A stretch of 64,000 nucleotides of DNA, from contig OZ244821.1 of NCBI GenBank assembly GCA_965220325.1, positions 1,179,428-1,243,427 of the forward strand, read 5' to 3'. Both the position numbers and the translations under genes were made by a program. Below the pieces are notes generated by a model, which did no database searches, was not told where the DNA came from, and saw nothing but the letters and a program-made list of their open reading frames with translations. Positions 18,801 to 48,696 of the stretch are shown piece after piece. Source of the stretch: Candidatus Poribacteria bacterium. Its GTDB lineage: Bacteria > Poribacteria > WGA-4E > WGA-3G. Within the stretch, counting starts at the first letter, position 1; each line of letters opens with the position of its first letter.

Positions 18801-19550
18801 TGTCGGTAGGGTTACCGGATCAAACATATCAACGATGGTGAACTTCTCTCTCATTGACGCGGAATTAGCTGTACCGTAGGTGGTCGTTCCATCAACAAGC
18901 CCGGTTGGGACAAACCCTGCCTCCGCATCCACGGTAACCCAGACATCTATCGGAAGATCAGAATCCTCACCAGTCTGATTACCAAAGAGGCTTAGACCTA
19001 CTCTAAATGTAGCGAAGAAAACCTTGCTTTGCACAGATTCGTCAACACCAGTAGTAGCGGTATCATCTGCTACGCCTGTAATCGCAACACTGACTGCACC
19101 GTCACCAGAAGTATCAGCATATAAATCCTTAGAAGGAGCTGATTGTGCTGCGGCAGTAACTGTAAGGTCAATGTCATCAGATTCTATACGAGAACCACCA
19201 CTTACAGCATCATATAGATGATCACTAAATGTGATCTTCGCTGTAAACACCCCAGCAACAGTACCATCCGCCGCAAATGCAATAGGAGTCGCGTCGGGAT
19301 CAACCACAAGCCTCACATTATTACCGTCTACGGTAGAACCCATAATATGATCCACCAATTCAATAGATTCGACGGTTGGTGCAGGCAGGTGCTGTGCATC
19401 GTGCGCAGCTTTAGTGAGCGTAGCACCACCAGTAGCGGCATGTTGAAGTCCAGCAGTCGTGCCATCAAGATCATGCGCCATGGCAGGTATCGCTGCAAGT
19501 GCGAAAATTAAAATTAAACTTGCTAAGGAAAATGTCAATCGATTTGACAT
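15822..19550 (-). CDS. large secreted protein with three lamin-tail (LTD) domains and duplicated Ig-like modules
   Basis: Signal peptide MSNRLTFSLASLILIFALAAIPAMA. LTD motifs (...EWIELRN..., ...EWIELFN..., ...EQWIELHN...). Duplicated roughly 100 aa module TATLTFNKPVMLEKADIIVTGGEAGTPMPATADATMDTMWTVEI. C-terminus is ...GKATTTWGELKSLQ. Confidence 0.75.
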   Translation of the reverse strand: MSNRLTFSLASLILIFALAAIPAMAHDLDGTTAGLQHAATGGATLTKAAHDAQHLPAPTVESIELVDHIMGSTVDGNNVRLVVDPDATPIAFAADGTVAGVFTAKITFSDHLYDAVSGGSRIESDDIDLTVTAAAQSAPSKDLYADTSGDGAVSVAITGVADDTATTGVDESVQSKVFFATFRVGLSLFGNQTGEDSDLPIDVWVTVDAEAGFVPTGLVDGTTTYGTANSASMREKFTIVDMFDPVTLPTVTITAPDATVDKKFTATLTFNKPVMLEKADIIVTGGEAGTPMPATADATMDTMWTVEISPVLDAASVVVDVAEKEATGAELEVTAESPPTVTILADSTATVDKKFTVTLNFSEKVELAMADIMVMGGTAGTPMPATADATMDTMWTVEITPTAGATSVEVSVSAMKATGMKETVTAKTPPAAAMLAAGKYLVVVRDKDSPPSFGNLSPDVVSWSEVSDEEEMPDLEELFDIGGTINVKVTGATRLQVVFSEVMWAVDQGQIDNRAAYLGEQWIELHNRTSDKNFAISAIKISSQARRPALAEETDRISNVVGAGDDWVLGKGQNGNSGATDGSGMVTGMVEFISMYRSNGGGPGHQSGHWTKSTELYATNHRGTPGQKERAGVQLVGTTNANRGPIIFNEIANHDNPDYEWIELRNVSGGNVNLKNYEVTMITGLDKDDDLIDFTTADRNVPAGGILLVVKKDPTGDPNHPLAAGWNFGVRNTWTVAKPGEANYVPGVNENSARYMVAHTFNELPDDHSNFVLVLRNRQDRNGSTGDNNIRDIAGYHPNLKVDDGTRFTNLWPLSNFPAPNRENNKLTVGTVQRRQHADIDGTKSKENNNNSDKVAFRDDDNGWSGIGYKRKAKPNAQNGGTPGHPHSAHARHNRFDATTRSSVIVSEIMIDQGPRNLPEWIELFNTSRTEAVSVQGWRITVTNHDMDSADGGVGSFDGDLTISFRLPNHVIPPRQSYLIVARSARNNTMLPKERIHSVNRRGSQLLLNTYGFQIKVEAWEKDSVYHAVDTIGNLGPAPENDRRSNGQSFVPISWMLPNTIGANSNRISLVRVSDTMGPIDGMDKNAWKFFDMSQQLGRTLDATSYGHTSDQGSPGHNAGGVLPVELSTFRPTRLDDGSVAIRWITESELDNAGFNILRSDTRDGQFTKLNTQLIAGQGTTSERTAYEFVDKTAKPNVVYYYQIQDVSIDGDIQVLKVTHLRGHVSPTGKATTTWGELKSLQ

Positions 19551-19867
19551 AGATTATTTTCCTCCAAAATGTAAAAAGAAAAAACAGTGTTAAGTCTCGC
19601 TTCTTTAAAGTGAGCGAAAACTTCCATTCAACAGTCGAATGGATTCAGGGAAGTAAACCCATTCTGAAACAATAAACTAACCTTTTTGGTGCGTAGGTGC
19701 GTTGTCCGCAACGCTACGCTTTTGTGTCAAATTTTACGGAGGTAATGACGACTCATCCGAGAGACTGTTTTTGGCGAGAGGCTGTTTCAAGCGAATCTCC
19801 CGAATTAAACCTCAAATATACATTAAGACGTTTTATTTTATCGAAAGTTACAACAATTTTGCCTTAA

Positions 19868-20650
19868 TTTACTAATATTATACAAAATTAATTGTATTAA
19901 GTCAAATTTATTTGCGTTTTTTTGAATAAAAAACCATTTTTATCGGCAATTACACAAAATATTATCAATTTAATTAACAGTTAGCCGAAATTTACGAAAC
20001 TATATGCGTAGTAAACCCATTTATATTTTGTTTAATCGTGAATTATGTTTATTTTTTACCAAATACATTAATATTATACGAAATAAATTGTATTAAGTCA
20101 AATTTATTTGTGTTTTTTTTGAATATAATCGGATATTTCTCGGTTTTTTGGGGGCGTTTGGGGGATTTGTATTGCGTTTGGGTGGTATTTTGGAGGTGGT
20201 ACAAATACAAAGACCACAGGCTAACGGTCTCCTATGCTACAAAGATTCGGAATTTTTTATTGTTGTTTAGAGAGATGGTACAAATACAAAGACCACAGGC
20301 TAACGGTCTCCTATGCTACAAAGATAGCGTATCGTAGGTTGGGTTGAACGGATGCGACCAAACCGCTGGGAAGCTATAGGTTTGCACGTAGAAGCCGGTT
20401 CGGTTGGGAAACCGAACCTACCAGGACGGGGTCGGACCAGGACGGGATCGGAAGTGTGGGTAGGTTTTTAACCCGAAACACGCGCTGGATGCACACTCTT
20501 TTCAGGGTTCCCTAGGCCTTGAAACGTGATGCACGGCGCGTGTTGGCGGGTGTTTTTGTTTTCTTTGGAGGAGAATAACATCTTCCTCACACTTTAATTA
20601 TACGCTAAAATTTAAAATTAAGTCAAATTTATTTTGTTTTTTGAAAAGAT
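19868..20650. repeat. three copies of an AT-rich repeat (ATTATACRAAATNAATTGTATTAAGTCAAATTTATTTGYGTTTTTTTGAATA) in a non-coding AT-rich tract
   Basis: Copies at about 19868-19935, 20066-20135 and 20590-20650. No credible ORF in 19560-20800. Confidence 0.5.
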
Positions 20651-20811
20651 CGGCATAGGAATAGGAGATAGGTTTGTAGCATAGAAGACTGTTGGCAGGC
20701 ATTTCCGAAGCCCTGAAAAGCCATGATTCAAACAGTAATTGATAAAGTATCTATCCATTCCACTCAAACCGAGGTAATTGGCGAAGGTATTGGTCTAGTA
20801 TACGCATATAG

Positions 20812-21351
20812 TTAATTCGGCTGCTGCTCAGCAGGAGATGGTTCGTCAAAGGGTTCACCCGCAGCTTCAGCTGCTTCTTTTCGCTTGAACCATTCAATCC
20901 ATGCTTGATTTGCCATCTGGAACCCCTCGGCTTTGCCCTCGGCTTTGCCTTCCGCTTTGCCCTCGGCTTTGCCCTCGGCTTTGCCCTCGGCTATACCTTC
21001 CGCTATACCTTCCGCTTTACCCTCGGCATAAACTCGGTCTCTAAATAACTTTGCATACCCAAACATGATTTCCTCCAGTATATGTGAAAAAATGAAAAAG
21101 AAGCCAACAATCAACGCCATCAGAACAGACGTTCGCGTTAATAACGTTCCACCTAATGCCTCCAACCTCCAACCAAAGAGAACTTCAAGTAATAGATTCA
21201 GTATTACAAGACTTGAAAAAATCCGAGCGAATACATAGAACCATTTTCGCGGGATCCGGACTAACGATACATAGTCCTTATCATTTGATGCCATCAACTG
21301 AAACATCCTTTCAAAATAGGGCGTGATAAAAGGTGCAATACACAGGACCAT
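20812..21351 (-). CDS. small membrane protein with C-terminal (AEGK)n repeat tract
   Basis: Three predicted TM helices, then AEGKAEGIAEGIAEGKAEGKAEGKAEGKAEGKAEG from 12-bp tandem repeats, then a W..KRKEAAEAAGEPFDEP tail paralogous to 14102-14407. Confidence 0.5.
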   Translation of the reverse strand: MVLCIAPFITPYFERMFQLMASNDKDYVSLVRIPRKWFYVFARIFSSLVILNLLLEVLFGWRLEALGGTLLTRTSVLMALIVGFFFIFSHILEEIMFGYAKLFRDRVYAEGKAEGIAEGIAEGKAEGKAEGKAEGKAEGKAEGFQMANQAWIEWFKRKEAAEAAGEPFDEPSPAEQQPN

Positions 21352-21377
21352 CGCTTTACTTTCATGTTGATATGTTA

Positions 21378-21407
21378 ATTATAATTCAGCGTGGATAGAG
21401 ATGTCAA
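21378..21407 (-). promoter_or_regulatory. sigma70-type promoter (TTGACA-N18-TATAAT) for 20812-21351
   Basis: Minus-strand TTGACATCTCTATCCACGCTGAATTATAAT, about 27 nt upstream of the start codon. Confidence 0.45.
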
Positions 21408-21496
21408 GGATTTTTTTATCAAGATTTTGATGCAGGGCCATTCAATTCTCGATTTGGATATTGGTTTTGCTTTACAGAGGTGAACATTCTTACGGA

Positions 21497-21621
21497 AAAT
21501 CGCGAGCGTGAAGAAACACCGTTTTTGCTTGGGCGTTTCTTAAGCAAAAACACTCGCTCCTACCGGGGAATCATATTCACAGATATAAAGTGAATAGGTA
21601 CAATTGAATGGCCCTGATAGT
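21497..21621 (+). repeat. REP copy with 45-bp hairpin-loop insertion
   Basis: CGCGAGCG[TGAAGAAACACCGTTTTTGCTTGGGCGTTTCTTAAGCAAAAACAC]TCGCTCCTAC...TTCACAGATATAAAGTGAATAGGTACA. The insert is itself a hairpin (GTTTTTGCTT/AAGCAAAAAC). Confidence 0.6.
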
Positions 21622-21866
21622 ATATTACTAAACTTTGGACAATTTTAGGTGCGATACACATGTCGCCCCGCTGGGGCTTAGACCTTGGGAGACCTGACGT
21701 TTCTATAAACATACCGCCCCGCTGGGGCTGCTCTTTAGTTCATTCGTGTTTATTTTCTTGTGAGTTGGGTTTGCATGAAAAACTTTTAGAAAAATCGGAA
21801 ATACTTCGGAAATAGGTCATGAACTCAACAGAAATTGTCCAAACTATAGTAGTATATTATCAAAAA
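21618..21866 (+). mobile_element. MITE-like element (about 250 bp) with terminal inverted repeats ACTAAACTTTGGACAATTTT / AAATTGTCCAAACTATAG and a paired-hairpin core
   Basis: Homologous over its whole length to 23735-23972 in the same orientation. The core is GCCCC-GCT-GGGGC x2. Confidence 0.55.
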
Positions 21867-21885
21867 TGTCCGAAAATGACAATGC

Positions 21886-21912
21886 AAAATTCTATATTGT
21901 CAAAATTGCGTA
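21886..21912 (+). promoter_or_regulatory. palindrome TGACAAT-N13-ATTGTCA plus direct repeats AATTCTATATTRTCAAAA upstream of fic, a possible operator
   Basis: Located 40-60 nt upstream of the Fic start in an AT-rich leader. Confidence 0.3.
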
Positions 21913-21948
21913 AAAATGATAATATAGAATTCTATATTATCAAAAACA

Positions 21949-23091
21949 GTGAAAAATAATAATATGAAAAAGTTTATAGCAGGCGAATACAGACAACAGA
22001 GAGAATATAAGAGTTTTACACCGTCCCTCGTAAACCGCTATTTTGTTTGGGAAGACCCACAGATAAATATTCTAATGGCAAGGGCAATGCAGCTCTTAGG
22101 AGAGTTAAATGCTTATGCCGAACTCATACCAGATGTAGATTTCTTCATTCAAATGACAATTACGAAAGAAGCTCGAGATTCAAATCTGCTTGAAGGGACG
22201 AGAACCGAACTTGATGAAGTTGTTCTTCCGCACACGGAAATTCCGCCGACCAGACGCGGTGATAGACAAGAGGTTCAAAATTATATTGAAGCGATGAATT
22301 TCGCAATAGCCGAACTTCCAAAAATTCCGATTTCGATGCGACTTCTCAAGGATGTACATAAAATACTACTTTCCGGTGTTCGCGGAAAACACAAGGCACC
22401 CGGTGAAATTCGCAGAAGTCAAAACTGGATTGGCGGTTCCTCGGTTTCTGATGCTTTTTTCGTTCCACCTTCTCCAGAAGAAGTCCCAGATCTTTTAAGT
22501 GATTTGGAGAAATTTTGGCACAACCGATCCCTGCAAATTCCGGAACTGATTAAAATCGCTATCACACATTATCAGTTTGAGACCATTCACCCCTTCCTTG
22601 ATGGAAACGGTAGGTGCGGGAGACTGTTAATCGTCTTGCAACTCATTGATGCAAAGATACTTGAGAAGCCGGGGCTTTATGTATCTACTTTTTTTCAGAG
22701 ACATAAAGATGCGTACTATGATTCACTTACTACGGTCCGTAAATTGAATAAATTAGATCAATGGATATTGTTTTTCTTAGAAGGAATCGCTGATGCTGCC
22801 AAGGATACAAGAGAAACGTTCAAGTCGATTACTGCGCTTCGTCAAGAATATGATACAGCGATTTTTACCTTGGGTTCTCGGGCAAAGAACGCTCAAAAAT
22901 TACTACTTTTTATGTACTCCCAACCGATTGTTAACGTAAATTGGGTTGCAACGGAATTAAACATAAACTATCCAACCGCGAACCGTCTCCTAAAATGTTT
23001 GACAGAACTTGACATACTAAAGGAAATTACGGGATACTCGCGTAATCGCTTTTTTGTCTTGGAGAAATACCTGAACCTCTTCAGAAGTTAG
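21949..23091 (+). CDS. fic: Fic family protein (class II, intramolecular inhibitory helix), probable AMP-transferase
   Basis: Canonical HPFLDGNGRCGRLL (HPFx[DE]GNGR) motif. The inhibitory motif SNLLEG ([ST]xxxE[GN]) lies N-terminal to the core. C-terminal wHTH-like region. Confidence 0.85.
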   Translation: MKNNNMKKFIAGEYRQQREYKSFTPSLVNRYFVWEDPQINILMARAMQLLGELNAYAELIPDVDFFIQMTITKEARDSNLLEGTRTELDEVVLPHTEIPPTRRGDRQEVQNYIEAMNFAIAELPKIPISMRLLKDVHKILLSGVRGKHKAPGEIRRSQNWIGGSSVSDAFFVPPSPEEVPDLLSDLEKFWHNRSLQIPELIKIAITHYQFETIHPFLDGNGRCGRLLIVLQLIDAKILEKPGLYVSTFFQRHKDAYYDSLTTVRKLNKLDQWILFFLEGIADAAKDTRETFKSITALRQEYDTAIFTLGSRAKNAQKLLLFMYSQPIVNVNWVATELNINYPTANRLLKCLTELDILKEITGYSRNRFFVLEKYLNLFRS

Positions 23092-23233
23092 CGGATTTCA
23101 GGCAAGCACTTTGATATCCTTGTACAGTACAGCCCGTTGATGCGTCGCACGCATTTCCGAAGCCGTGAAAAGCCATGATTCAAACAACAATTGACAAAAT
23201 ATTTACGCCCCGCTATGGATAACAGATATAAAT

Positions 23234-23262
23234 TTGACAAACTTACACATCTTTTGTATAAT
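23234..23262 (+). promoter_or_regulatory. consensus sigma70 promoter TTGACA-N17-TATAAT
   Basis: TTGACAAACTTACACATCTTTTGTATAAT, about 45 nt upstream of ORF 23308. Confidence 0.5.
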
Positions 23263-23307
23263 TACAATACACAAATAATAGATGCTCATAGAAAGGAGTG
23301 TTAAACT

Positions 23308-23508
23308 GTGAATGAAAATTTGGATTTCTCCGAGAAGCAGAAGGAATTTTTAAGAGATTTGCTCGGAGAAACTTTTTTACCTCTCGAAAGAAGGGTGAAT
23401 AGAGCACTCAATCGTTATGACCTTGTATCCGAGCATGTATTAAATCTTGACCGTGTTATCACTGAGGCAATTACAAGACTTGAGAATAACCTTAATGATA
23501 GCCATTGA
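23308..23508 (+). CDS. small hypothetical protein (66 aa, helical), possible Fic-associated partner
   Basis: GTG start 10 nt after GAAAGGAG Shine-Dalgarno, with a perfect upstream promoter. No homology recognised. Confidence 0.35.
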   Translation: MNENLDFSEKQKEFLRDLLGETFLPLERRVNRALNRYDLVSEHVLNLDRVITEAITRLENNLNDSH

Positions 23509-23734
23509 CTACTTCAGTCGATGGCTATTGTCTTTTCTAAACCTCTATACTATCTTTGATAAAGCGAATATGTAAAACTATAACGGATTTCAAAATTAAT
23601 GAGACCCTTTACAAGCGGACGAGGGAACCTCGCCCCTACAAGGGGTGGTCTCGGCAATCACTGAAATGTCTCTTTAATTATTGACTTTACTATAAATGCC
23701 CCTGATGGCCATGCTTTTTTTCGCTTGACTTTAC

Positions 23735-23972
23735 ATTATACTATAGTTTGGACAATTTTTGCGCAATAAACATGCCGCCCCTACGGGGCTTAGATTCGTG
23801 GCGGATGCCGTTTCTATAGACATATCGCCCCTACGGGGCTGCGTATCGGTGCATCGGCATTTATTTTTCTACGAGTTGCGTTTGTATCTGTAACACTCAG
23901 AAAATCCGAGAATGTGGTGGAAACAATGCCTGATCTGGATAGAAACTGTCCAAACTTTAGTACATTATATAT
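23735..23972 (+). mobile_element. second copy of the MITE-like element (TIRs TATAGTTTGGACAATTTTT / AAACTGTCCAAACTTTAG)
   Basis: Direct-orientation homolog of 21618-21866. Hairpins GCCCC-TAC-GGGGC x2. Confidence 0.55.
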
Positions 23973-24093
23973 AAGGCATGATTTATAGTAGGTGTTTTCA
24001 ATTTTGTAGATGCGTTTAAACACATCTATTTCTCCATAATATCATGTCGTTCAAATAGAATCAACGCTCTTTCAAGTTATACCCTTTTGATTT

Positions 24094-39429: not shown

Positions 39430-40236
39430 ATGTGGGTCTTTATTTTTCTCCTCGGTTTAGCAATCGGTAGTTTCCTTAATGTCTGTATCTACCGTATCTC
39501 TTACCGTATCCTTCATCCTGATTCAAACGTGTCCATCCATTCTCCGCGTCGCTCTTTTTGTCCGGCATGCAACGCAACAATAAGTATTTATGACAACATC
39601 CCGGTTTTGAGTTATCTGCTTTTACGTGGCAAATGTCGGCATTGCAGCGCGTCGATTTCCGTACTTTATCCGTTGGTTGAGCTTGCCACGGCGGGGTTGT
39701 TCCTCGTGATGTACTATCGCTTTGGACTCACCCTCGAATTTCTGCTTGCACTTGTTTTCGTTGCGGTATTAGTACCAATTTTTGTCATCGATGCACAGCA
39801 CTATATCATTCCAAATGTCCTCATTGTCACTGGACTGATTCTCGGTTTCGGCATTGTCTGTGCAATCGCGTATCAACGCAGCGATGTCTGGTATCTGCTT
39901 ATCCGTCTCATCGGTGCTGTTGCGGGTGGGTCGGCGTTGTGGTTGGTCGCTGTTATCGGGAGCGCGGTCTTACGCAAAAAAGCGATGGGGGGCGGCGACA
40001 TCAAGTTGATGGCACTCATCGGATTGTTCCTCGGTGCCTGGCCCGAACTCGCGATGGTGATAGGTTTTTCTGCCTTCAGTGGCGCGATTGTCGGGACGAC
40101 ACTCATCGTCTCAGGCGTGAAAAGCCGTGAGAGTCCTATCCCTTACGGTCCGTTTCTTGCCGGTGCTGCGGTGCTTGTCCTCTTGTGGGGAGATAGCCTC
40201 TGGCGTTTGTACTTGCAATCTGTGGGGTGGCATTAA
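39430..40236 (+). CDS. prepilin peptidase (A24 family, PilD/GspO-like)
   Basis: GSFLNVCIYRI...SFCPACNATISIYDNIPVLSYLLLRGKCRHCS zinc motif plus multiple TM helices. Confidence 0.8.
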   Translation: MWVFIFLLGLAIGSFLNVCIYRISYRILHPDSNVSIHSPRRSFCPACNATISIYDNIPVLSYLLLRGKCRHCSASISVLYPLVELATAGLFLVMYYRFGLTLEFLLALVFVAVLVPIFVIDAQHYIIPNVLIVTGLILGFGIVCAIAYQRSDVWYLLIRLIGAVAGGSALWLVAVIGSAVLRKKAMGGGDIKLMALIGLFLGAWPELAMVIGFSAFSGAIVGTTLIVSGVKSRESPIPYGPFLAGAAVLVLLWGDSLWRLYLQSVGWH

Positions 40237-40312: not shown

Positions 40313-41656
40313 ATGAAAACCTTTTGCCTAATCATCTGCCTTTTGATGTTAGCCTTGAGCCAACAGGTTGCGTCCGCACAGCAGCAGCAAATTAAGGAAG
40401 AATCTGCTGAGGACTTTGTTAAATTAGGAATACCGCTCGAAGAAGCACTCACCAAAGCTACGTTTGTCGTTGAGTGGTTAAGCGGAGACGGAAGTACTGA
40501 AGTAAATTTTCAAGGTGAGAACGTAATCCGCACCCCTGATTACATAGAGCTCCGCTCTGATGAAGATGAACGGGGCAGGTCCAGTTATTATAGGGTCCTA
40601 CCTCAGCATACTGTTGAAGGAAATCGGTATATTTTTGTGCCGTTAGCCCAAAGTGGTGGCGGTTCTGGGGTCCTTTGGAATCTCCATATAGTAGATAAAA
40701 AAACGCTCCGAACTGTTGATACAGCCGGTCTCGGAGATCGCGCGAGGATTGAAAAGGTTGGCTTGGCTGTTCCTAATAGTGATACTGTCTCTATCACCTA
40801 TATTAAGCGGGAGGTTATTAAAGGTAAAGCCGTACATGACCTGAAAAAAGCAATAACGAAACACTTTCGGATGATACAAGGAACCCTTCAGGAGGTGGAA
40901 ACCCCTATGGGGAGCAACGCCGAGGCAATTACACCGAAAATATCCGAGGAGCCCGACGTTATTTTTCAATTGGTTGAGCGTCTACAATTCGCTGATGGCA
41001 CGGCAGTAAAATCCATCGCTAAAGACGATATTGACGCACTTCGGGACCGACCTATTCGCCTTGGTCCGAACGATCATATTGACGGTGTAACGCTAACAAA
41101 CGAGAAAGGCGAAGATATCCAAGTGCGAACGTGTAGAGAATATGACGATGCGCTTAAGCGTGGTTACTATGCCAACACGAATTTTGATGCACAAATGTCT
41201 ATGTGGTTTATGCATCAGTGTGGATTGTTGAACGCGTTAGAGGGGGCAGCTGCTCCTCGGCAAAGTTATATCTCAAATCCTAAAGTGGGAATAACGAATT
41301 TAGAGTTGATGCCTTTTTCCGTTTTTCCTTACGCGTCGGACGAGGAGATAAAATCAGGAGCGACATTTCAGACAAAGATCAAGAATGGGGAACTCAGAGT
41401 TGTAGAAAAAAATCAAAACACTCTGACGACTGAGGAAATCGATACGGGACAATTTTTACAGGAAGTGGTACGTGCTGACTTTAACGATGACGGTATTGAA
41501 GATATTTTTCTATTTGAGTATCATTATTCAATACGAGGCACATTCGGCTCTGGTGGAATTATTGTCTTGACCCGTAAATCGGTGGATGGGAAGTTTGAAG
41601 TTGTGCGTCCCTCCAACCCAGCCCAATCTTCCGGACATCCATATTGGTTTGATTGA
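40313..41656 (+). CDS. secreted hypothetical protein (447 aa)
   Basis: Signal peptide MKTFCLIICLLMLALSQQVASAQQ. GGAGG RBS. No recognisable domain. Confidence 0.5.
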   Translation: MKTFCLIICLLMLALSQQVASAQQQQIKEESAEDFVKLGIPLEEALTKATFVVEWLSGDGSTEVNFQGENVIRTPDYIELRSDEDERGRSSYYRVLPQHTVEGNRYIFVPLAQSGGGSGVLWNLHIVDKKTLRTVDTAGLGDRARIEKVGLAVPNSDTVSITYIKREVIKGKAVHDLKKAITKHFRMIQGTLQEVETPMGSNAEAITPKISEEPDVIFQLVERLQFADGTAVKSIAKDDIDALRDRPIRLGPNDHIDGVTLTNEKGEDIQVRTCREYDDALKRGYYANTNFDAQMSMWFMHQCGLLNALEGAAAPRQSYISNPKVGITNLELMPFSVFPYASDEEIKSGATFQTKIKNGELRVVEKNQNTLTTEEIDTGQFLQEVVRADFNDDGIEDIFLFEYHYSIRGTFGSGGIIVLTRKSVDGKFEVVRPSNPAQSSGHPYWFD

Positions 41657-41879
41657 AAACTTGTATTATAGGGAATCCTAAAAATAAATAGACATCTTTG
41701 TAGCATAACCTGTTAGGTTGTGCCAGTCTGATTGCCTGTTATAGGCATTCAGACTGTTTGAGTGTGCCCAATTAATTATAGATTTTACTATAATCTGAAC
41801 GAAAACATCTATTTTTTTTGAACTCACATTATGTTATCATTTCCACATTAATGGACAATCCGTGTTTTGGAGAAAATCA

Positions 41880-43706
41880 ATGAGAACAGTACCATATCCA
41901 CGGGATCATATTTTCTATAATAATCGCGGTATTGATTACGGTGAAAAGGGTGAGCATGATCTTGCCATCAAAGATTTTACCAAAGCAATTGAACTTAATC
42001 CGGACTATGCGATCGCCTATAACAATCGCGGTGCTGTCTATCGTGATAAAGGTGAGCACGACCAAGCCATTGAAGACTGCAGCAAAGCCATACAACTGCA
42101 ACCCAATTATGCCGAACCCTATAACAATCGCGGTGCTGCTTATGGCAACAAAGGCGATTATGACCTTGCGATTAAAGACTATAACATAGCGATAAAACTG
42201 CAGCCGGATTTTGTTCAGGCTTATTACAACCGTGGTCTTGCCTACCACGAGAAACGTGAATTTGATCGCGCTATTAAGGATTATAGCAAAGCGACAAAAC
42301 TGAATCCGAAACTTTTTCATCCGTATTACAATCGTGGCAATGTTTACCTCCAAAAAGGTAATTTTGATAGAGCTATTGAAGACTATAGTAAGGCAATAGA
42401 ATTGAATCCAACACTTGGTCCTGCATATTGCAATCGCGGTGAAGTTTGGTTACATTTAAAAGAATGGGATAAGGCAAAAGCCGATTTGACCACTGCCAAA
42501 GATAAAGGGGTTGATATCATCGCTGCGTTTCATAACTCTTATAGAGACGTTGCGACTTTTGAGCGGAGAAATAGTGTTAAACTGCCGAAAGACATCGTGG
42601 CAATGTTGAGGCAATATCCAGTCAACAATTTTACAACAACGCAAAGAACCTTGACTGCTGATGGCGAAACACAAGAATCTTATGCGGTGTTAGAACTGTT
42701 GGAGAAATTTCGCAATACTGGCAAGCCACTGAGCGAATATCTCCACGGGCAACCCTCTCGTGGTATTACGACAGGGTGCAACGAAGTATTTATAGTAAAG
42801 CGTGAAACGTATGATGCCCTCATTGCGGAACACCCGTCGTCTGCTGATATTTTAAAACCGTTTCTGATGGCGCGCGACATCCAACGTTGGCGGGTGAAGC
42901 CAACAGACGAGTCGCGGAGAGAACTACAAGACAAATGGCTGATCTTTACGCATCAAGGCATAGACATTGATGCATATCCGGCAATCGAGAAACACTTAGG
43001 AAAACACCGTGATGCGCTGGAAAAACGATCAGGGAAACAGGAGTGGTACGAACTGCAAACGGCTCCAACGGATACGACGCGGTTTACGCAACCGAAGTGT
43101 ATCTATGCAGATATGGCAAGTGAAACTGCGTTTGCTTTTGATGATGAAGGCTACTATGTAGGCAGCCCCGCATCTCTGTTGCCTACAAGTGAACTGTGGC
43201 TTCTCGGTGTGTTGAACACCAGAGCGGTTTCCTGGTTTTATGCGCGGACAGCTCCACAGGTTCGAGGTCCGTTTTTAAAATTCGTGCCTCAGTATGTCTC
43301 ACAAATCCCAATCCCTGATATGGAACCGGAGCAGAAGGCACTCATCCACAAACTCGTTGAATATATCCTTTATCTCAAGAAACAGTCCACGGTAAAAAGT
43401 AGAGATTTAAAATACGCCCGTGCCCGCGTGATGGTTGGATATTTTAATCAAATTATTGATGGTCTGGTTTATGAATTATATTTGCCGGACGAGCTTCATA
43501 AAAGCCGCAAACACCTTTTTCAACCGTTGTTCGATGAACAGTTGCCACCCCTTGAGGAGATTCAAGGTGATAAAATGTCCGCGTGCCGAGACATTTTTGA
43601 GCGGTTATATGAAAAAACGCATCCGGTTGCGGTCAATCTATTCTTTTTGGATAGTGTCAAACCTATCTGTATCGTTGAGAGTAAGGCGTCAATAACCCCC
43701 CGCTAA
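41880..43706 (+). CDS. TPR-repeat protein fused to a type IIG / TaqI-like C-terminal target-recognition domain, with no methyltransferase catalytic domain
   Basis: N-terminal roughly 220 aa is 6-7 TPRs (AIELNPDYAIAYNNRGAVY...). The C-terminal roughly 380 aa has GITTGCNEVFIV, FLMARDIQRW, LWLLGVLNTRAVSWFYART...SQIPIP, IDGLVYELYLPDEL, matching the TRD and C-terminal helical region of Eco57I/MmeI/PglX-type enzymes. No (D/N/S)PP(Y/F/W) motif. Confidence 0.6.
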   Translation: MRTVPYPRDHIFYNNRGIDYGEKGEHDLAIKDFTKAIELNPDYAIAYNNRGAVYRDKGEHDQAIEDCSKAIQLQPNYAEPYNNRGAAYGNKGDYDLAIKDYNIAIKLQPDFVQAYYNRGLAYHEKREFDRAIKDYSKATKLNPKLFHPYYNRGNVYLQKGNFDRAIEDYSKAIELNPTLGPAYCNRGEVWLHLKEWDKAKADLTTAKDKGVDIIAAFHNSYRDVATFERRNSVKLPKDIVAMLRQYPVNNFTTTQRTLTADGETQESYAVLELLEKFRNTGKPLSEYLHGQPSRGITTGCNEVFIVKRETYDALIAEHPSSADILKPFLMARDIQRWRVKPTDESRRELQDKWLIFTHQGIDIDAYPAIEKHLGKHRDALEKRSGKQEWYELQTAPTDTTRFTQPKCIYADMASETAFAFDDEGYYVGSPASLLPTSELWLLGVLNTRAVSWFYARTAPQVRGPFLKFVPQYVSQIPIPDMEPEQKALIHKLVEYILYLKKQSTVKSRDLKYARARVMVGYFNQIIDGLVYELYLPDELHKSRKHLFQPLFDEQLPPLEEIQGDKMSACRDIFERLYEKTHPVAVNLFFLDSVKPICIVESKASITPR

Positions 43707-44118
43707 AGCATGGGGCTTGTGCGAAGCGTAGCCAGCGTTCACTCCACAAGTTAAACTATTGACTACAGTAAAATATCACGGTATCGTGGCATGGCAGTCA
43801 CAAAGTCTGTCTTAAAACGATATGTTGAACTGGTAGTAGGCATATCTAAGGATGCTCCCCAAGTCTGACGTAAAGGCTGATACCTGTGATCTGGATGGGG
43901 CAACATACAACCCGAAAGGGATTTTACCTGTTTTCTCAAAGATACCGTGTCAGGTCGGATTGGAGATGGTGACAGCACTTCCAAAAAGAAGCAGCACAGT
44001 CAGAGAGAAACGGAGACCCCGAAACCGTGCCGAAAAAAACGGAACGCTTATATTCTAAACTAAAAATTGTATCTTCTATTCAACTTACACTGATACTCGA
44101 GACTACGTTGGTGCAACT

Positions 44119-44406
44119 GTGGATACTATAGCGCAAGTGCTTCAACAGCACGTGCCAAATACAGGAACACACGGGATAATAGTTGTAATTGATGGACTGG
44201 ATAAGCAAGAAAAACAACAGATCGCCAAACGATTAAAGCGGGCAGGGGTGATGTATAAAAAGGTACGTGGAGCCAAAGATGAAGGGAGCGCGTGGATAAG
44301 ATTAGCCGATGCCATTGCGGGATTTAGTTGGGATGTTTACAAAAACAAACCATATACGCAAAGCCTACATGCTGACATGCCATCGGGACCTTTTATTCAA
44401 ATATAA
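44119..44406 (+). CDS. hypothetical small protein, possibly a gene remnant
   Basis: GTG-initiated 95 aa ORF in a 1.2 kb low-coding tract. A weak NYN/LabA-like pattern (GIIVVIDGLD) is unconfirmed. Confidence 0.2.
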   Translation: MDTIAQVLQQHVPNTGTHGIIVVIDGLDKQEKQQIAKRLKRAGVMYKKVRGAKDEGSAWIRLADAIAGFSWDVYKNKPYTQSLHADMPSGPFIQI

Positions 44407-44854
44407 AAAAAAGCTAGAGTGTCTGGCTCTAGCAACCCAACATAGACATACCACAGCGGCAGAGGTCACGGTTGGCTGGCCCTAGTTTTCCCGGGGAAAA
44501 CACCGTCCATACGGCACGTATTCGGGCAAAGTACACATTCGACATATATTATAACGAAAAAAAAACAGATTGTCAAGTTTTTTGTCTAATTTTCAATTAT
44601 GGTAAAATCTATCGTTATTCAGGCACCGTGGTAGGCGCGGTTTTGCGGCGTATTCGCCCAAATGCGACCGGCATTCAAACTGCGCCTACTAGGAAATTGT
44701 GTAAGTCCCACTTCATACAGTTTGCGTGATGGTTATCTGTCAACATTTCTAATCCTGCAAATCCTGATTCGGGTAATTAACGCGTTCCGCTTCCATCCTT
44801 CCGATCCAAATTTTTGATGGAATATGGATACGTGCCCCAAAACATAATCCTTTG

Positions 44855-44883
44855 CAATTAACACCCTTATACGCTATAATTCA
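44855..44883 (+). promoter_or_regulatory. sigma70-type promoter TTGCAA-N17-TATAAT for the nitroreductase gene
   Basis: TTGCAATTAACACCCTTATACGCTATAAT, followed by AAGGAGGA RBS and ATG 44908. Confidence 0.45.
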
Positions 44884-44907: not shown

Positions 44908-45477
44908 ATGGATGTTAAAGACGCGATTCTTACACGACGTACGATTTTTAAATTCAAACAGGAACCCGTGCCAAACGATGTCATCGAACAGGTTTTCAGT
45001 TACGGGATATGGGCACCGAATCACCATGTCACGGAGCCTTGGCGTTTTACTGTGATTGGCAAGGAGACAAAGCTAATCCTGGCAGACCGCTACCGCGAAA
45101 TCAAGATGGAGGATACACCCGACCACGTTGATGCCGAAAATCTCGCCAAAATCGGTGAACTCGCTTACGATAAATTCATGTCCAAGCCGACGATTATTGC
45201 CGTTTCGTGCTTACAGGAAGGCGATGAACAACGTCGACGTGAAGACTACGCCGCTGCGTGTTGTGCAATGCAAAACGTCCAACTCGCTGCATGGGATGCG
45301 GGGGTCGGTATGCAATGGAGCACCGGCAGGATCACGATGGAAGAACAGACGTATCAGTTGTTAGGGATTGATTCGTCACAGGAGTATATCATCGGTTTCT
45401 TCTATACCGGTTACCCCGCCGACATCGGGCAACCGAAAAGGCAACCTGCAGGTGAGTTTATTCGGTGGGTAGCGTAA
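44908..45477 (+). CDS. nitroreductase family protein
   Basis: AILTRRTIFKFKQEPVPNDVIEQVFSYGIWAPNHHVTEPWRFTVI is a typical NADH/FMN nitroreductase fold signature. Confidence 0.8.
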   Translation: MDVKDAILTRRTIFKFKQEPVPNDVIEQVFSYGIWAPNHHVTEPWRFTVIGKETKLILADRYREIKMEDTPDHVDAENLAKIGELAYDKFMSKPTIIAVSCLQEGDEQRRREDYAAACCAMQNVQLAAWDAGVGMQWSTGRITMEEQTYQLLGIDSSQEYIIGFFYTGYPADIGQPKRQPAGEFIRWVA

Positions 45478-46521: not shown

Positions 46522-47367
46522 ATGAATAAGTACGTTCTCTCTCTTTTTAAATTCAGGCATTTTACCATAATGCTAACAGTGCTTTTAGCAAGCAGTCTGT
46601 TTGGATGTCCGTCTCCTGACTCGGTACAGCAGGAGAAGCGTGAGCTGCAACGTGATGCGTTAAAACTGAGGATGGGACAGGCACTCAACCCGACGGATGC
46701 GGAAGGACATCTTCAACTCGGAAAAACCTATCGCGAATTAGGTGAACATGAGAAAGCGATAGAATCTTTTCAACATGCCCTCGCACTTGATGCCGAAAAT
46801 GCGCATGTCTATAACAATTTCGGTCTCGTTTACATGGATACCCGTCTGTTTATCCTCGCGATTGAAATGTTCCAAGCTGCGTTGGAGTTGTCCCCCGAAA
46901 ATCCTGCGTTCCTGAACAATCTCGGTTATGCGTACAATATGACCGACCGGTTTGAAGAAGCACTCACTGCTTACCGCAGCGCCATTGCGTCGGATCCGAC
47001 TTTCATTGACGCCTATTACAACCTCGCCGATACCTACCTCAACCGCGAGATGTATCCAGAGGCTGTTCAGTATTATGAGGCAGCCCTCGAGATGGAAGAA
47101 GGCGATGCCGACGCTGATGTCTATTTTAACGCCGGACTCGCTTATGAGAAAAACGGACAGTTCCTGCCCGCCATCCAATCCTACGAAAAAGGGGTATCAA
47201 TTGATGATGGCGATGCGGAGGCGTATTACCGTCTCGCCCAGACGTACAAGAAAAACGGCGATCCGCTTATGATGCGTCGCTATCTGGAGACGTTTTTAGA
47301 TCGGGCGCGGGGAGCTCCGCATCTTGAAAAAGAGATCCACGAGGCGGAGCAGCTGTTCGACAAATAG
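46522..47367 (+). CDS. TPR-repeat lipoprotein
   Basis: Lipobox LFGC after the signal peptide. At least 6 TPRs (AHVYNNFGLVY, PAFLNNLGYAY, IDAYYNLADTY...). Confidence 0.65.
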   Translation: MNKYVLSLFKFRHFTIMLTVLLASSLFGCPSPDSVQQEKRELQRDALKLRMGQALNPTDAEGHLQLGKTYRELGEHEKAIESFQHALALDAENAHVYNNFGLVYMDTRLFILAIEMFQAALELSPENPAFLNNLGYAYNMTDRFEEALTAYRSAIASDPTFIDAYYNLADTYLNREMYPEAVQYYEAALEMEEGDADADVYFNAGLAYEKNGQFLPAIQSYEKGVSIDDGDAEAYYRLAQTYKKNGDPLMMRRYLETFLDRARGAPHLEKEIHEAEQLFDK

Positions 47368-47385: not shown

Positions 47386-48696
47386 TCAAGGCTGTCTTAA
47401 GATCAGCAGAAATTCTGATTTCATCCCGTCCGGATTCTTATTCCTCCGAGCACCGAATAGTTTCCTTGTTTTAATCCTATCCTCATAGACTTTTTCAAAC
47501 GTCCATCCGCGTTCCGTGAAATACTCCGCCAGTATCCGCCACAATTCGACCGTTATACCGTCAATTCGAGGGTTACCAACGAAGATACACGCTGCAGCGT
47601 TCGGTTTCAGTTGCTTCATTGCGTTCTCAAGTGCGTTGACCGTATGACAAAAATAGGAATCGAGCCGTTTTCGGAGGTCGTCTCGGGTGAGCATCTCTCG
47701 GACGTTAGCCAACGTTTGGGTCTGAACGATCCGATCTGTCTTCCGATACGGGATTTCAAGCCGTGATAGTTCTCGGATCTCTTCCTCCGTGTGTCCTAAC
47801 CAGAACAGTTCCATTTTCGTTGAACGGATATACTCCTGCGCTTGGAGGTATGGTGGTGATGTTATGAGCGCGTCGCATTCTCTCGGCACCGTAATATAAG
47901 ACGAATCCACACCCCCTTGCCACTGTATTTCAGGCGTCCGATCGTTGTGATGCGCCTGTGTGTACACAACGAAATCGTTAAGACTTCTTAACGTCTTGAG
48001 CGAGAGCGTGTCAACCATCTCATCTAACTGCGCTCTCCAATTCTCCTTAAGCAGTTCCGCTATGGCACTCAACTTCCGTTTCGATCTCGCAAGTTTAGGG
48101 GTCCTATCTTCTGTGTTAGAGAAACGTTTGCTTGCCTTCAACAGTGCAGCCTTAATAATGGAAGAAAAGACATCGTCGTCCGCCTGATGGATAAATCCCC
48201 AGTAGTATGATAAGACCTCTAACATTTCCGGTGCGTACCAATAATCAACGTTTGACCAATCGGGTATGAACCGGTGTTTACTCGCTCGCATGCCCTCCAA
48301 AAGTTTATGCAAATCTGCTTCGTGCAGTCTCCCTTTACCGCGGTAAACCTTGAGCGGCATAATGTGATTCAGGAGAAGGTTAAGATCAAGTAACACAGCA
48401 TTGCGTTTGCACAAATACGCCTCAACACCAACCGTTCCTGAACCTGCAAACGGATCTATAATCCAATCCCGTTCCTTTGTGTAGGTATTAATCGCGTAGC
48501 GGACGATTTGTGGGATGAATTTCGCAGGATAGGCATAGATAGCGTGTGTCAAGTAGCCAGTATCGTCGATTTCAGGAACGAGATCGCGAAAGGAGACCCA
48601 TTCGACCCCATCAGATGCCGTTTTCTCTGCCGGTGTTTCAAACTCGGTGTCTATCGAAAAAAGCGTGAACTGTTCTTCCAGATTTCGGTTTTGCAT
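47386..48696 (-). CDS. DNA N6-adenine/N4-cytosine methyltransferase, motif order I then IV (alpha-class), apparently orphan
   Basis: YPAKFIPQIVRYAI...WIIDPFAGSGTVGVEAY (AdoMet motif I) at about residue 90, and ALITSPPYLQ (catalytic motif IV) at about residue 275. No adjacent nuclease gene. Confidence 0.65.
   Translation of the reverse strand: MQNRNLEEQFTLFSIDTEFETPAEKTASDGVEWVSFRDLVPEIDDTGYLTHAIYAYPAKFIPQIVRYAINTYTKERDWIIDPFAGSGTVGVEAYLCKRNAVLLDLNLLLNHIMPLKVYRGKGRLHEADLHKLLEGMRASKHRFIPDWSNVDYWYAPEMLEVLSYYWGFIHQADDDVFSSIIKAALLKASKRFSNTEDRTPKLARSKRKLSAIAELLKENWRAQLDEMVDTLSLKTLRSLNDFVVYTQAHHNDRTPEIQWQGGVDSSYITVPRECDALITSPPYLQAQEYIRSTKMELFWLGHTEEEIRELSRLEIPYRKTDRIVQTQTLANVREMLTRDDLRKRLDSYFCHTVNALENAMKQLKPNAAACIFVGNPRIDGITVELWRILAEYFTERGWTFEKVYEDRIKTRKLFGARRNKNPDGMKSEFLLILRQP

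What the first reader, a model, noticed from the sequence alone, without database searches (positions are those of the whole stretch)
41880..43706. TPR domain fused to a type IIG/BREX-PglX-like target-recognition and C-terminal helical region, with no methyltransferase core
- **C-terminal half.** Residues in the roughly 380 aa C-terminal half match hallmark segments of Eco57I/MmeI/PglX-type enzymes. These are GITTGCNEVFIV, the LLGVLNTRAVSWFYART...IPIP box, and the terminal IDGLVYELY helix.
- **No catalytic core.** These segments normally sit C-terminal to an N6-adenine methyltransferase catalytic core. Here there is no NPPY/DPPY motif and no AdoMet-binding motif.
- **N-terminal half.** The N-terminal 220 aa are 6-7 TPRs.
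- **Interpretation.** A sequence-reading TRD uncoupled from catalysis and joined to a protein-interaction scaffold is an undescribed architecture. It could be a DNA-sequence-specific recruiter in a defence or regulatory system, or an exapted RM remnant.
- **Context.** The downstream 1.2 kb is gene-poor and may carry a degraded partner.
Basis: partly seen in the sequence, partly recalled or inferred. Interest (0 to 1): 0.7.

Follow-up and report, generated by a model that had tools for sequence, protein, structure and literature searches.

The report
Orphaned TPR–TRD sensor lacking methylase
This gene fuses protein-binding TPR repeats to the DNA-reading module of a restriction-type methylase that has lost its enzyme core; in related sponge-symbiont bacteria it is almost always paired with an ATPase–RNase gene in what looks like a new variant of an anti-phage suicide system, but here that partner has been replaced by unrelated DNA that starts with a possible insertion-sequence RNA, leaving an orphan.

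The parts
41880..43706 (+). TPR-TRD-CTD ORF, 608 aa (alternative GTG start at 41862, 614 aa). No MTase core and no N-terminal effector head.
41907..42509 (+). TPR array: six TPR_1 repeats, residues ~10-210.
   Evidence: TPR_1 E 3.4e-61, 6 stretches
42633..43388 (+). TaqI_C-type target-recognition domain, residues ~252-503. Homologous to the TRD of Eco57I-type/type IIG enzymes and of M.BseCI.
43389..43688 (+). C-terminal helical region (CTD), residues ~504-603. It is shared only with those MTase relatives that also carry the ABC-HEPN gene, so it is inferred to be the partner-docking element.
   Evidence: The helices are the only moderately confident part of the AF2 model.
43689..43706 (+). Aberrant tail SITPR plus stop. 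It replaces the family's normal ...ESKA* end, which overlaps the ATPase start codon. It is encoded by the first bases of the replacement DNA.
43688..44857 (.). 1.17 kb of DNA unrelated to the intact locus, in the position of the ABC-HEPN ATPase gene. This is the 'gene-poor 1.2 kb' of the finding.
   Evidence: identity to L001 ends ~43687 and resumes ~44858; no tblastn trace of the ATPase. (part of it is shared with L024).
43688..43908 (+). HEARO-like (IscB-type omega RNA, IS200/IS605) sub-threshold match. It covers the full model length and starts exactly at the breakpoint.
   Evidence: (26.5 bits vs gathering 83; E 0.0014-0.0096)
44119..44406 (+). 95-aa ORF inside the replacement DNA. No family match. 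Conserved at 79% aa identity in L024.
44908..45477 (+). Nitroreductase gene: the conserved downstream backbone flank of the slot. Not part of the system.
39430..40236 (+). Prepilin peptidase (PilD-like) gene: the conserved upstream backbone flank of the slot. Not part of the system.

Best explanation
What the gene is. It belongs to a Poribacteria-restricted family built as [variable head: none, TIR, FRG or HNH-like] - TPR array - TaqI_C TRD - C-terminal helices. Normally it is translationally coupled to a downstream ABC-ATPase-HEPN gene.

Origin. The pair derives from R-M-like cassettes (PLD-SNF2 helicase + Eco57I-type MTase-TRD-CTD + the same ABC-HEPN protein). In those, the ABC-HEPN protein is an accessory of the PrrC type.

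Proposed mechanism (inferred).
1. The TRD-CTD is the platform that binds the ABC-HEPN partner and keeps it latent, as the EcoprrI R-M enzyme does for PrrC.
2. In Poribacteria the methylase core and the helicase-nuclease were dropped. They were replaced by a TPR array acting as a protein or peptide sensor, and by swappable toxic heads.
3. A phage-derived cue is engaged by the TPRs or the TRD. It releases or activates the ATPase, the HEPN domains dimerise, and RNA cleavage arrests growth. TIR, HNH or FRG heads add further outputs.

This window. The copy has no head. Its ABC-HEPN gene has been replaced by unrelated DNA that begins with a possible IS200/IS605-type RNA. Only the sensor/scaffold remains, so it is most likely a recently orphaned and functionally inert relic, or at most a ligand sink.

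Shown: domain composition, absence of the MTase core, the conserved gene pair, ancestry, the HEPN fold, purifying selection, and partner loss here.
Inferred: physical docking, RNase activity, the trigger, and a defence role.
For: - Architecture and missing core.
- Family conservation without an MTase.
- Gene pair: the ABC ATPase follows with a 4-nt overlap in L001 and L002. It lies directly downstream in ~22 of 30 loci.
- Ancestry: L030, L036, L037 and the P0262 contig all read PLD-SNF2 + Eco57I MTase-TaqI_C + orthologous ATPase, 34-50% identical end to end.
- CTD tracks the ATPase: 4 of 4 relatives that align through the CTD have it, and 0 of 2 informative relatives that align only over the TRD have it.
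- Conflict-system hallmarks: polymorphic heads TIR, FRG (PADLOC PDC-S15) and HNH-like on a constant body. Defence-gene neighbours: NERD+UvrD, GmrSD.
- Selection: dN/dS 0.10-0.17.
- Loss here.
- Precedent for R-M-docked ABC-HEPN (PrrC/EcoprrI) and for HEPN genes embedded in R-M operons: PMC3710099.
- A TIR-TPR gene embedded in a conventional Poribacteria MTase/PLD-SNF2 cassette.
Against: - No experiment or complex model shows that the TRD-CTD binds the ATPase. The AF2 model of the TRD half failed (pLDDT 44).
- The HEPN motif is atypical. The conserved basic residue gives R-x8-H. The canonical-spacing R437 (Rx6H) is not conserved in MTase-linked orthologs, so RNase activity is uncertain.
- The cassette is vertically inherited in one chromosomal slot across many species. 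That is unusual for defence islands and could indicate a housekeeping or regulatory role.
- In 7 of 8 loci with a lost or degraded ATPase, the TPR-TRD ORF is still intact. The protein may therefore have an ATPase-independent function, which would weaken the 'inert relic' reading of this copy.
- The CTD-ATPase correlation rests on 6 loci.
- Only 64 kb of this genome was seen, so a second ATPase copy elsewhere cannot be excluded.
Confidence: 0.6

Rival explanations
1. The TPR-TRD protein is a stand-alone, sequence-specific DNA-binding protein (a regulator or recruiter). It works without the ATPase: the TRD reads a fixed DNA motif and the TPRs recruit other proteins. On this reading the window copy is fully functional.
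For: - The TRD is unusually conserved for an R-M specificity domain: 64-90% identity across species, many invariant columns, dN/dS ~0.1. This fits one fixed ligand.
- The ORF stays intact in 7 of 8 loci where the ATPase is degraded or gone.
- The gene sits in a stable chromosomal slot, inherited vertically.
Against: - The strong, translationally coupled association with an ABC-HEPN gene across two phyla, together with toxic-type heads (TIR, HNH, FRG), is not what a regulator looks like.
- In gamma-class MTases the catalytic domain also contributes to DNA recognition, so an isolated TRD may bind DNA poorly (established knowledge of M.TaqI-type enzymes; not tested here).
- L024, which shares the replacement DNA, has a broken TRD gene.
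Confidence: 0.15
2. The TRD-CTD is a decoy of an R-M/BREX-type methylase. It traps phage anti-restriction proteins (DNA mimics, Stp-like peptides). Binding triggers the ABC-HEPN and head effectors. This is a dedicated anti-anti-restriction guard, comparable in logic to PARIS or PrrC.
For: - The catalytic core has been lost while the surface-exposed TRD-CTD is retained under selection.
- The partner has the PrrC-like plan, and PrrC is activated when phage Stp hits the R-M enzyme (PMC3710099).
- The ATPase N-terminus resembles AriA, PtuA and GajA-type sensor ATPases.
Against: - No evidence for any phage ligand.
- The TPR array would be an equally good or better ligand sensor.
- This is a refinement of the main explanation rather than an alternative, and is untestable with these tools.
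Confidence: 0.12
3. It is one of the 'eukaryote-like' TPR repeat proteins that sponge symbionts use to interact with their host. The TRD-like part is an incidental, non-functional fusion.
For: - The family is restricted to Candidatus Poribacteria, which are sponge symbionts.
- TPR proteins are abundant in such genomes. Another TPR protein lies at 46522-47367. Sponge-symbiont literature on this came up.
Against: - The TRD-CTD half is at least as conserved as the TPR half and is under purifying selection.
- The conserved ABC-HEPN partner and the TIR/HNH/FRG heads point to intracellular nucleic-acid conflict.
- I noticed no obvious N-terminal signal-peptide-like stretch in the sequence; no predictor was run.
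Confidence: 0.05

Closest known systems
PrrC/EcoprrI and related R-M-embedded ABC-ATPase-HEPN modules (PrrC/RloC/APECO1_4465 group; Anantharaman et al. 2013, PMC3710099)
   Same: - The family's partner protein has the same two-domain plan: an N-terminal Rad50/SMC-like ABC ATPase and a C-terminal HEPN.
- It is encoded immediately after the specificity-bearing gene of an R-M-type system.
- The proposed logic is the same: the R-M-type protein holds the RNase latent.
   Different: - The R-M partner here is not a type I enzyme. It is an Eco57I-type MTase-TRD, and in Poribacteria only its TRD-CTD remains, fused to TPRs and effector heads.
- The ATPase is not a sequence member of the PrrC family: the AAA_13 match covers the P-loop only.
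- The HEPN motif spacing is atypical.
- In this window the ABC-HEPN gene is missing altogether.
Eco57I-family / type IIG-like N6-adenine MTases with a TaqI_C TRD, coupled to PLD-SNF2 helicase-nucleases (PADLOC 'REase_MTase_IIG', 'HKD+Snf2' C3a139, DrmD/DrmMI-like)
   Same: - The TRD and C-terminal helices are homologous over ~350 aa at 34-45% identity.
- The same downstream ATPase is present.
   Different: No AdoMet-binding or NPPY motifs, no MTase fold, no helicase-nuclease gene. TPRs are there instead.
M.BseCI (PDB 7qw5) and M.TaqI-type gamma-class methyltransferases
   Same: Only the TRD is detectably homologous: E 1.7e-15 over BseCI residues 336-573.
   Different: The catalytic domain is absent. 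An extra C-terminal helical region has no solved counterpart.
MADS (mad2 MTase + mad3 ATPase; Maestri et al., bioRxiv 10.1101/2023.03.30.534895)
   Same: - An ABC-type ATPase is encoded next to the N6-MTase, and it is needed for defence but not for methylation.
- mad3 is the best full-length PADLOC match to the ATPase core (E 6e-11).
   Different: - The similarity is distant and limited to the ATPase core.
- mad3 (374-position profile) does not cover the HEPN domain.
- The mandatory MADS genes mad6-8 are absent.
Effector-TPR conflict proteins (Avs/STAND-type TPR sensors; TIR-TPR proteins)
   Same: An N-terminal swappable effector (TIR, nuclease) followed by a TPR sensor array.
   Different: No STAND NTPase. 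The C-terminus is an R-M-derived TRD, and the NTPase is a separate ABC-HEPN protein.

Membership tests
Type IIG / gamma-class N6-adenine DNA methyltransferase (Eco57I, MmeI, PglX type) | AdoMet-binding motif I (xDPxCGxG / FxGxG) | tested here: not met
   Regex found none. No Eco57I, N6_Mtase or MmeI_Mtase Pfam hit, although these hit the relatives L030, P0249, P0251, P0253 and P0257.
Type IIG / gamma-class N6-adenine DNA methyltransferase (Eco57I, MmeI, PglX type) | Catalytic motif IV (N/D/S)PP(Y/F/W) | tested here: not met
   Absent from all 608 residues. Present as GNPPY in the Saprospiraceae relative.
Type IIG / gamma-class N6-adenine DNA methyltransferase (Eco57I, MmeI, PglX type) | C-terminal TaqI_C-type target-recognition domain | tested here: met
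   PF12950 E 1.8e-11, above gathering. PADLOC IIG models E 1e-21. M.BseCI TRD E 1.7e-15.
Type IIG / gamma-class N6-adenine DNA methyltransferase (Eco57I, MmeI, PglX type) | Nuclease domain, fused or on an associated subunit | tested here: not met
   No nuclease domain in the ORF. No PLD-SNF2 gene in the neighbourhood, in contrast to L030, L036 and L037.
BREX (PglX-containing systems) | Co-located PglZ and BrxC/PglY genes | tested here: not met
   None in the window flanks or in the annotated neighbourhoods of L001, L002, L036, L037. PADLOC PglX models do not match the window protein.
PrrC/RloC-type R-M-coupled ABC-ATPase-HEPN module (applies to the gene pair, not to the ORF alone) | ABC (Rad50/SMC-like) ATPase fused to a C-terminal HEPN domain | tested here: met
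PrrC/RloC-type R-M-coupled ABC-ATPase-HEPN module (applies to the gene pair, not to the ORF alone) | Canonical HEPN Rx4-6H catalytic motif | tested here: inconclusive
   Poribacteria have R437-x6-H444, but R437 is not conserved in MTase-linked orthologs. The conserved pattern is (R/K)435-x4-N440-P-x2-H444.
PrrC/RloC-type R-M-coupled ABC-ATPase-HEPN module (applies to the gene pair, not to the ORF alone) | Genetic embedding in or next to an R-M-type operon | tested here: met
   It directly follows the MTase-TRD gene in L030, L036, L037 and the P0262 contig, and the TPR-TRD gene in ~22 Poribacteria loci.
PrrC/RloC-type R-M-coupled ABC-ATPase-HEPN module (applies to the gene pair, not to the ORF alone) | Sequence membership in the PrrC/RloC family (Pfam AAA_13) | tested here: not met
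   AAA_13 E 5.6e-4, below its cut-off, P-loop residues 14-51 only.
PrrC/RloC-type R-M-coupled ABC-ATPase-HEPN module (applies to the gene pair, not to the ORF alone) | Latent anticodon or other RNase activity, unmasked on phage attack | not testable with these tools
   Needs biochemistry and phage assays.
TPR repeat proteins | Tandem 34-residue TPR motifs | tested here: met
   TPR_1 E 3.4e-61, six repeats.
Avs / STAND-NTPase TPR sensors | Central STAND NTPase domain | tested here: not met
   No NTPase domain in the ORF.
MADS | Mandatory mad6, mad7, mad8 genes | tested here: not met
   No such PADLOC hits in the proteins scanned. Only a distant mad3-like ATPase core and mad2-like MTase appear in relatives.

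The most novel reading that the evidence does not exclude
An R-M specificity module (TRD plus C-terminal helices) has been freed from methylation and restriction. It has been re-used, across a whole bacterial phylum, as the sensing and docking core of a modular abortive-infection system. It reads a fixed DNA sequence or captures phage anti-restriction factors, and it licenses an ABC-HEPN RNase plus interchangeable TIR, HNH or FRG heads. That would be methylation-independent immunity built on R-M recognition hardware. The repeated loss of the ATPase with retention of the sensor, as in this window, would then reflect an additional ATPase-independent role.
Probability: 0.25. Interest if true: 0.75.

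Novelty: new variant of a known kind. Interest (0 to 1): 0.5.

Why it matters
- **How a new immune module may arise.** R-M systems are known to host abortive-infection accessories such as PrrC. This family appears to show the next step. The accessory (ABC-HEPN) keeps only the piece of the R-M enzyme it is linked to (TRD-CTD). The enzymatic parts are discarded and new sensors (TPR) and effectors (TIR, HNH, FRG) are bolted on.
- **A natural minimal construct.** If the docking idea holds, the family defines the minimal ATPase-binding interface of Eco57I-type MTases.
- **A possible example of a TRD acting without its methylase.**
- **Natural knock-outs.** ABC-HEPN loss is recurrent: 8 of 30 species-level loci, this window included. 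These loci can be used to ask whether the sensor has an independent role.
- **Annotation.** These proteins are currently labelled only 'tetratricopeptide repeat protein' and 'ATP-binding protein'.

Tried and rejected
- **Degraded partner in the 1.2 kb.** tblastn with two ATPase orthologs found nothing better than E 0.5 anywhere in the window. The region is replacement DNA, not a pseudogene.
- **Beta-class MTase 47386-48696 as a trans-acting partner.** Rejected. It is present in only 11 of ~27 same-slot loci and in none of the TIR-type loci.
- **Structure of the TRD half.** The AF2 model with a 14-sequence alignment had pLDDT 43.7. It is unusable, so no fold search was run on it, and comparison with MmeI or PglX structures could not be made. 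A profile search of PDB sequences found only M.BseCI.
- **BREX, DISARM, MADS, Avs, Thoeris membership.** Considered and rejected on missing defining genes or domains.
- **Literature.** 'TaqI_C' + 'defense' gave 0 papers. Poribacteria/R-M/TPR papers do not describe the family.
- **The 95-aa ORF 44119-44406.** No hit in Pfam, PADLOC or NCBIfam. It is unassigned.
- **HNH-like head.** Only weak Pfam support (HNH_5 E 6e-4, below cut-off), so it is called 'HNH-like'.
- **Relaxed selection after partner loss.** Window versus sibling L038 differ by 4 synonymous and 3 nonsynonymous changes, too few to decide.
- **P0290 context.** Uninformative, because the contig ends at the gene.
Full report
**1. The observation**

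- The ORF runs from 41880 (ATG; an in-frame GTG lies at 41862) to 43706 on the + strand and encodes 608 aa.
- Pfam finds six TPR_1 repeats across residues ~10-210 (E 3.4e-61). It also finds a TaqI_C specificity domain (PF12950, E 1.8e-11, above its gathering score) at residues 357-478.
- PADLOC aligns residues 252-535 to the extreme C-termini of several type IIG REase-MTase models (best E 1.3e-21, profile positions 849-1112 of 1148) and of type II MTase models. It never aligns to their catalytic parts.
- The only solved relative by sequence is the TRD of M.BseCI (7qw5 residues 335-554): E 7e-12 with the single sequence and 1.7e-15 with a family profile.
- There is no (N/D/S)PP(Y/F/W), no motif-I-like xDPxCGxG and no GxGxG.

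**2. It is not a truncation artefact**

- A search with the C-terminal half alone (residues 221-608) returned 286 homologs. The top 120 are 61-99% identical, mostly 547-650 aa. They carry TPR + TaqI_C, or TaqI_C alone when short, and none has an MTase domain. The few that are named are 'tetratricopeptide repeat protein [Candidatus Poribacteria]'.
- An exhaustive scan of 1.8 billion 50%-cluster representatives gave 5,351 hits with a sharp divide.
  - Every representative I scanned at >=48% identity is TPR-TaqI_C, with a TIR head, an FRG head or none.
  - Every one I scanned at <=45% identity is a complete Eco57I-type MTase (Eco57I + N6_Mtase + TaqI_C, 959-1295 aa). Their last ~350 residues align to nearly the whole query.
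- In species-representative genomes the family is confined to Candidatus Poribacteria, apart from one 34%-identical Saprospiraceae protein.
- That protein (L030, 1285 aa) has intact ILDPACGSGAY and GNPPY motifs upstream of the homologous TRD-CTD.
- The window protein therefore belongs to a clade that lost the MTase core and gained TPRs.

**3. The conserved partner**

- In the 89%-identical, fully syntenic locus L001, the TPR-TRD gene overlaps by 4 nt with a 470-aa gene carrying SMC_N/AAA_15/AAA_23 domains. The same holds for the TIR-headed member P0115 at an unrelated locus (L002), where the gene is 478 aa.
- Across 30 loci with a full TRD match the ATPase has three states.
  - It lies directly downstream in about 22: 20 intact, 1 cut by a contig end, 1 lacking the first 26 residues in the alignment.
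  - It is internally deleted or fragmentary in 5 (L003, L004, L005, L007, L023).
  - It is absent in 3 (window, L024, L029).
- PADLOC, Pfam and NCBIfam place only its N-terminal P-loop region, alongside PbeC/DndD, AriA, mad3, LmuB, PtuA, GajA, RecF and Rad50. No model covers its full length.
- Its last ~145 residues had only marginal sequence hits: Pfam HEPN E 0.037, DUF4145 E 0.013.
- R435, N440 and H444 are invariant in the family.
- The partner is thus an ABC-ATPase-HEPN fusion, the domain plan of PrrC and RloC (PMC3710099).

**4. Ancestry of the pair**

- The full-length MTase relatives sit in a recurrent cassette: PLD(HKD)-SNF2 helicase, then Eco57I-type MTase-TRD-CTD, then an ABC ATPase. 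Small TA modules are sometimes inserted. This is seen in L030, L036, L037 and the P0262 contig.
- Those ATPases are end-to-end orthologs of the Poribacteria one (34-50% identity). They keep the signature (R/K)-x4-N-P-x2-H.
- The canonical-spacing arginine (R437, giving Rx6H) is Poribacteria-specific. Whether the HEPN domain is catalytic therefore remains open.
- A small discriminating test was run.
  - Four of four relatives that align through the window's C-terminal helices carry the ATPase.
  - Of relatives that align only over the TRD, two were informative and neither has it. One has a KAP NTPase in that position and one has nothing. A third was uninformative.
  - This fits the idea that the C-terminal helices track the ATPase, but it rests on only six loci.
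- A conventional Poribacteria cassette (L032) reads: Eco57I MTase core, TaqI_C ORF, a 705-aa TIR-TPR protein, PLD-SNF2 helicase. TIR-TPR accessories and these R-M-like systems are therefore already neighbours in this phylum, which makes the chimera plausible.

**5. Family anatomy and evolution in Poribacteria**

- The constant body (TPR-TRD-CTD) carries different N-terminal heads.
  - None: 13 loci, including the window.
  - FRG: 8 loci. Pfam E 4.5e-15; matches PADLOC candidate PDC-S15.
  - An HNH-like module followed by ~400 unassigned residues: 5 loci. Only weak HNH_5 support.
  - TIR: 3 loci plus several database proteins. TIR_2 E 3.5e-18; ThsB-like in PADLOC.
- Almost all copies occupy the same chromosomal slot between a PilD-type peptidase and a nitroreductase-amidohydrolase pair, whatever their head. 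The cassette is therefore inherited vertically, and heads were exchanged in place.
- Only the TIR forms L002, L026 and L027 lie elsewhere. L002 sits beside GmrSD and an ADP-ribosylglycohydrolase. L001 has a NERD+UvrD gene upstream (PADLOC C3a187, E 8e-110).
- The TRD-CTD half is under purifying selection in all comparisons (dN/dS 0.10-0.17; 0.28 for one pair).
- Such conservation is unusual for an R-M specificity domain. It suggests a constant ligand: the partner protein or one fixed DNA motif.

**6. What happened in this window**

- DNA identity to L001 (88.7%) stops at about 43687, 19 nt before the stop codon. It resumes at about 44858, just before the nitroreductase gene.
- The 1,170 bp in between are unrelated. 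No trace of the ATPase is detectable anywhere in the 64 kb.
- The family's normal C-terminus is ...IRIIESKA*, with the stop overlapping the ATPase start. Here it is ...ICIVESKASITPR*.
- The replacement DNA begins at 43688 with a sub-threshold match to Rfam HEARO, the IscB-type omega RNA of IS200/IS605 elements. The match covers the full model length (26.5 bits against a gathering score of 83; E 0.0014-0.0096).
- The match keeps the 5' hairpin and the two enclosing helices. Its first bases (G|TCA ATA ACC CCC CGC TAA) encode the aberrant tail.
- The element is unique in the window. It recurs only in the 99%-identical sibling contig L038, which additionally has an IS605 OrfB/TnpB gene inserted just upstream of the TPR-TRD gene.
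- L024 shares the central part of the replacement DNA, including the 95-aa ORF at 79% aa identity. There the TRD gene itself is split by a frameshift.
- L029 has an independent clean deletion joining the TPR-TRD gene to the nitroreductase.
- Window versus L038 differ by 4 synonymous and 3 nonsynonymous substitutions. That is too few to judge constraint after the loss.

**7. Best explanation**

- Shown: the family is an R-M-derived two-gene module. The TRD-CTD of an Eco57I-type methylase stays linked to its ABC-HEPN accessory, while the methylase core and the helicase-nuclease are replaced by TPRs and swappable toxic heads.
- Inferred, by analogy with PrrC/EcoprrI and with the general R-M/HEPN coupling described in PMC3710099:
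  1. The TRD-CTD docks the ABC-HEPN protein and keeps it latent.
  2. A phage cue sensed through the TPRs or the TRD activates the ATPase.
  3. The HEPN RNase, and the TIR, HNH or FRG head where present, then arrest the cell.
- The window's copy has no head and no ABC-HEPN gene. Only the sensor/scaffold is left.
- I consider it most likely a recently orphaned, functionally inert relic. The caveat is that 7 of 8 partner-less loci still keep an intact TPR-TRD ORF, which leaves room for an ATPase-independent role.
- My confidence is 0.6.

**8. Rivals**

- A stand-alone sequence-specific DNA-binding regulator or recruiter. The conserved TRD, the stable locus and ORF retention speak for it. The toxic heads and the coupled ABC-HEPN gene speak against it.
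- A decoy for phage anti-restriction proteins. This is a refinement of the main model and is untested.
- A host-interaction 'eukaryote-like' TPR protein. The conservation and context of the TRD half argue against it.

**9. Comparison with what is known, and novelty**

- The gene is not a type IIG enzyme or an MTase: motifs I and IV were tested and are absent.
- It is not BREX, DISARM, MADS, Avs or Thoeris, because their defining components are missing.
- The gene pair works like, but is not a sequence member of, the PrrC-type R-M-coupled ABC-HEPN modules.
- MADS offers a distant experimental parallel. Its mad3 ATPase lies next to the mad2 MTase and is required for defence but not for methylation.
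- I found no description of an MTase-less TaqI_C TRD fused to TPRs or paired with an ABC-HEPN protein. The literature tool covers open-access papers only.
- I classify it as a new variant of a known kind.
- Interest is moderate. The family is a neat case of an immune module built from R-M recognition hardware. However, domain reshuffling of this sort is common in conflict systems, the organisms are uncultivated, and the copy in this window is broken.

Noticed in passing
window 43688-43908 (+): Sub-threshold match to Rfam HEARO (IscB-type omega RNA of IS200/IS605) that covers the full model length. It starts exactly at the deletion or replacement breakpoint and encodes the aberrant SITPR* tail of the protein. 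No IscB or TnpA ORF follows it.
   Followed up: partly
window 44119-44406 (+); L024 4045-4329: A 95-aa ORF inside the replacement DNA, conserved at 79% aa identity in another Poribacteria species. It has no match in Pfam, PADLOC or NCBIfam, and its origin is unknown.
   Followed up: partly
L038 4651-5808 (-), sibling of the window: The 99%-identical sibling contig has an IS605 OrfB/TnpB (Cas12f1-like_TNB) gene inserted between the 447-aa gene and the TPR-TRD gene. It is absent from the window, so IS200/IS605-family elements seem recently active at this slot.
   Followed up: no
window 47386-48696 (-): A 436-aa beta-class N6/N4 DNA methyltransferase (PF01555; PADLOC MTase_II E 5e-27) with no adjacent restriction gene. 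It is a backbone gene in 11 related loci and is not linked to the TPR-TRD family.
   Followed up: partly
window 40313-41656 (+): A 447-aa ORF with no Pfam match, directly upstream of the TPR-TRD gene. Homologs or fragments recur upstream of the cassette in many Poribacteria loci, while L001, L009, L010 and L016 carry a NERD+UvrD gene (PADLOC C3a187) in that region.
   Followed up: partly
window ~19000-24000; gene 21949-23091 (+): A low-GC stretch (0.375-0.43 against ~0.49 elsewhere) that contains a Fic/DOC family gene (Fic E 4e-19). It may be a horizontally acquired islet.
   Followed up: no
window 15822-19550 (-): A 1,242-aa protein with Lamin Tail Domain and bacterial Ig-like domains, probably a large surface or adhesion-type protein.
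   Followed up: no
L013 11339-12502; L016 10674-11749: Two loci carry a second, tandem TRD-CTD copy after the ATPase gene (order TRD-ATPase-TRD). The L016 copy is in two pieces.
   Followed up: no
L032 5191-15475 (Poribacteria): A conventional cassette with the Eco57I MTase core and the TaqI_C TRD in adjacent ORFs 18 nt apart, then a 705-aa TIR-TPR protein, then a PLD-SNF2 helicase. It may resemble the precursor arrangement of the chimera.
   Followed up: partly
L039 6020-7816: An MTase relative that lacks the CTD homology has a KAP-family NTPase in the position where the ABC-HEPN gene sits in the other cassettes. Accessory NTPases at this position may be interchangeable.
   Followed up: no
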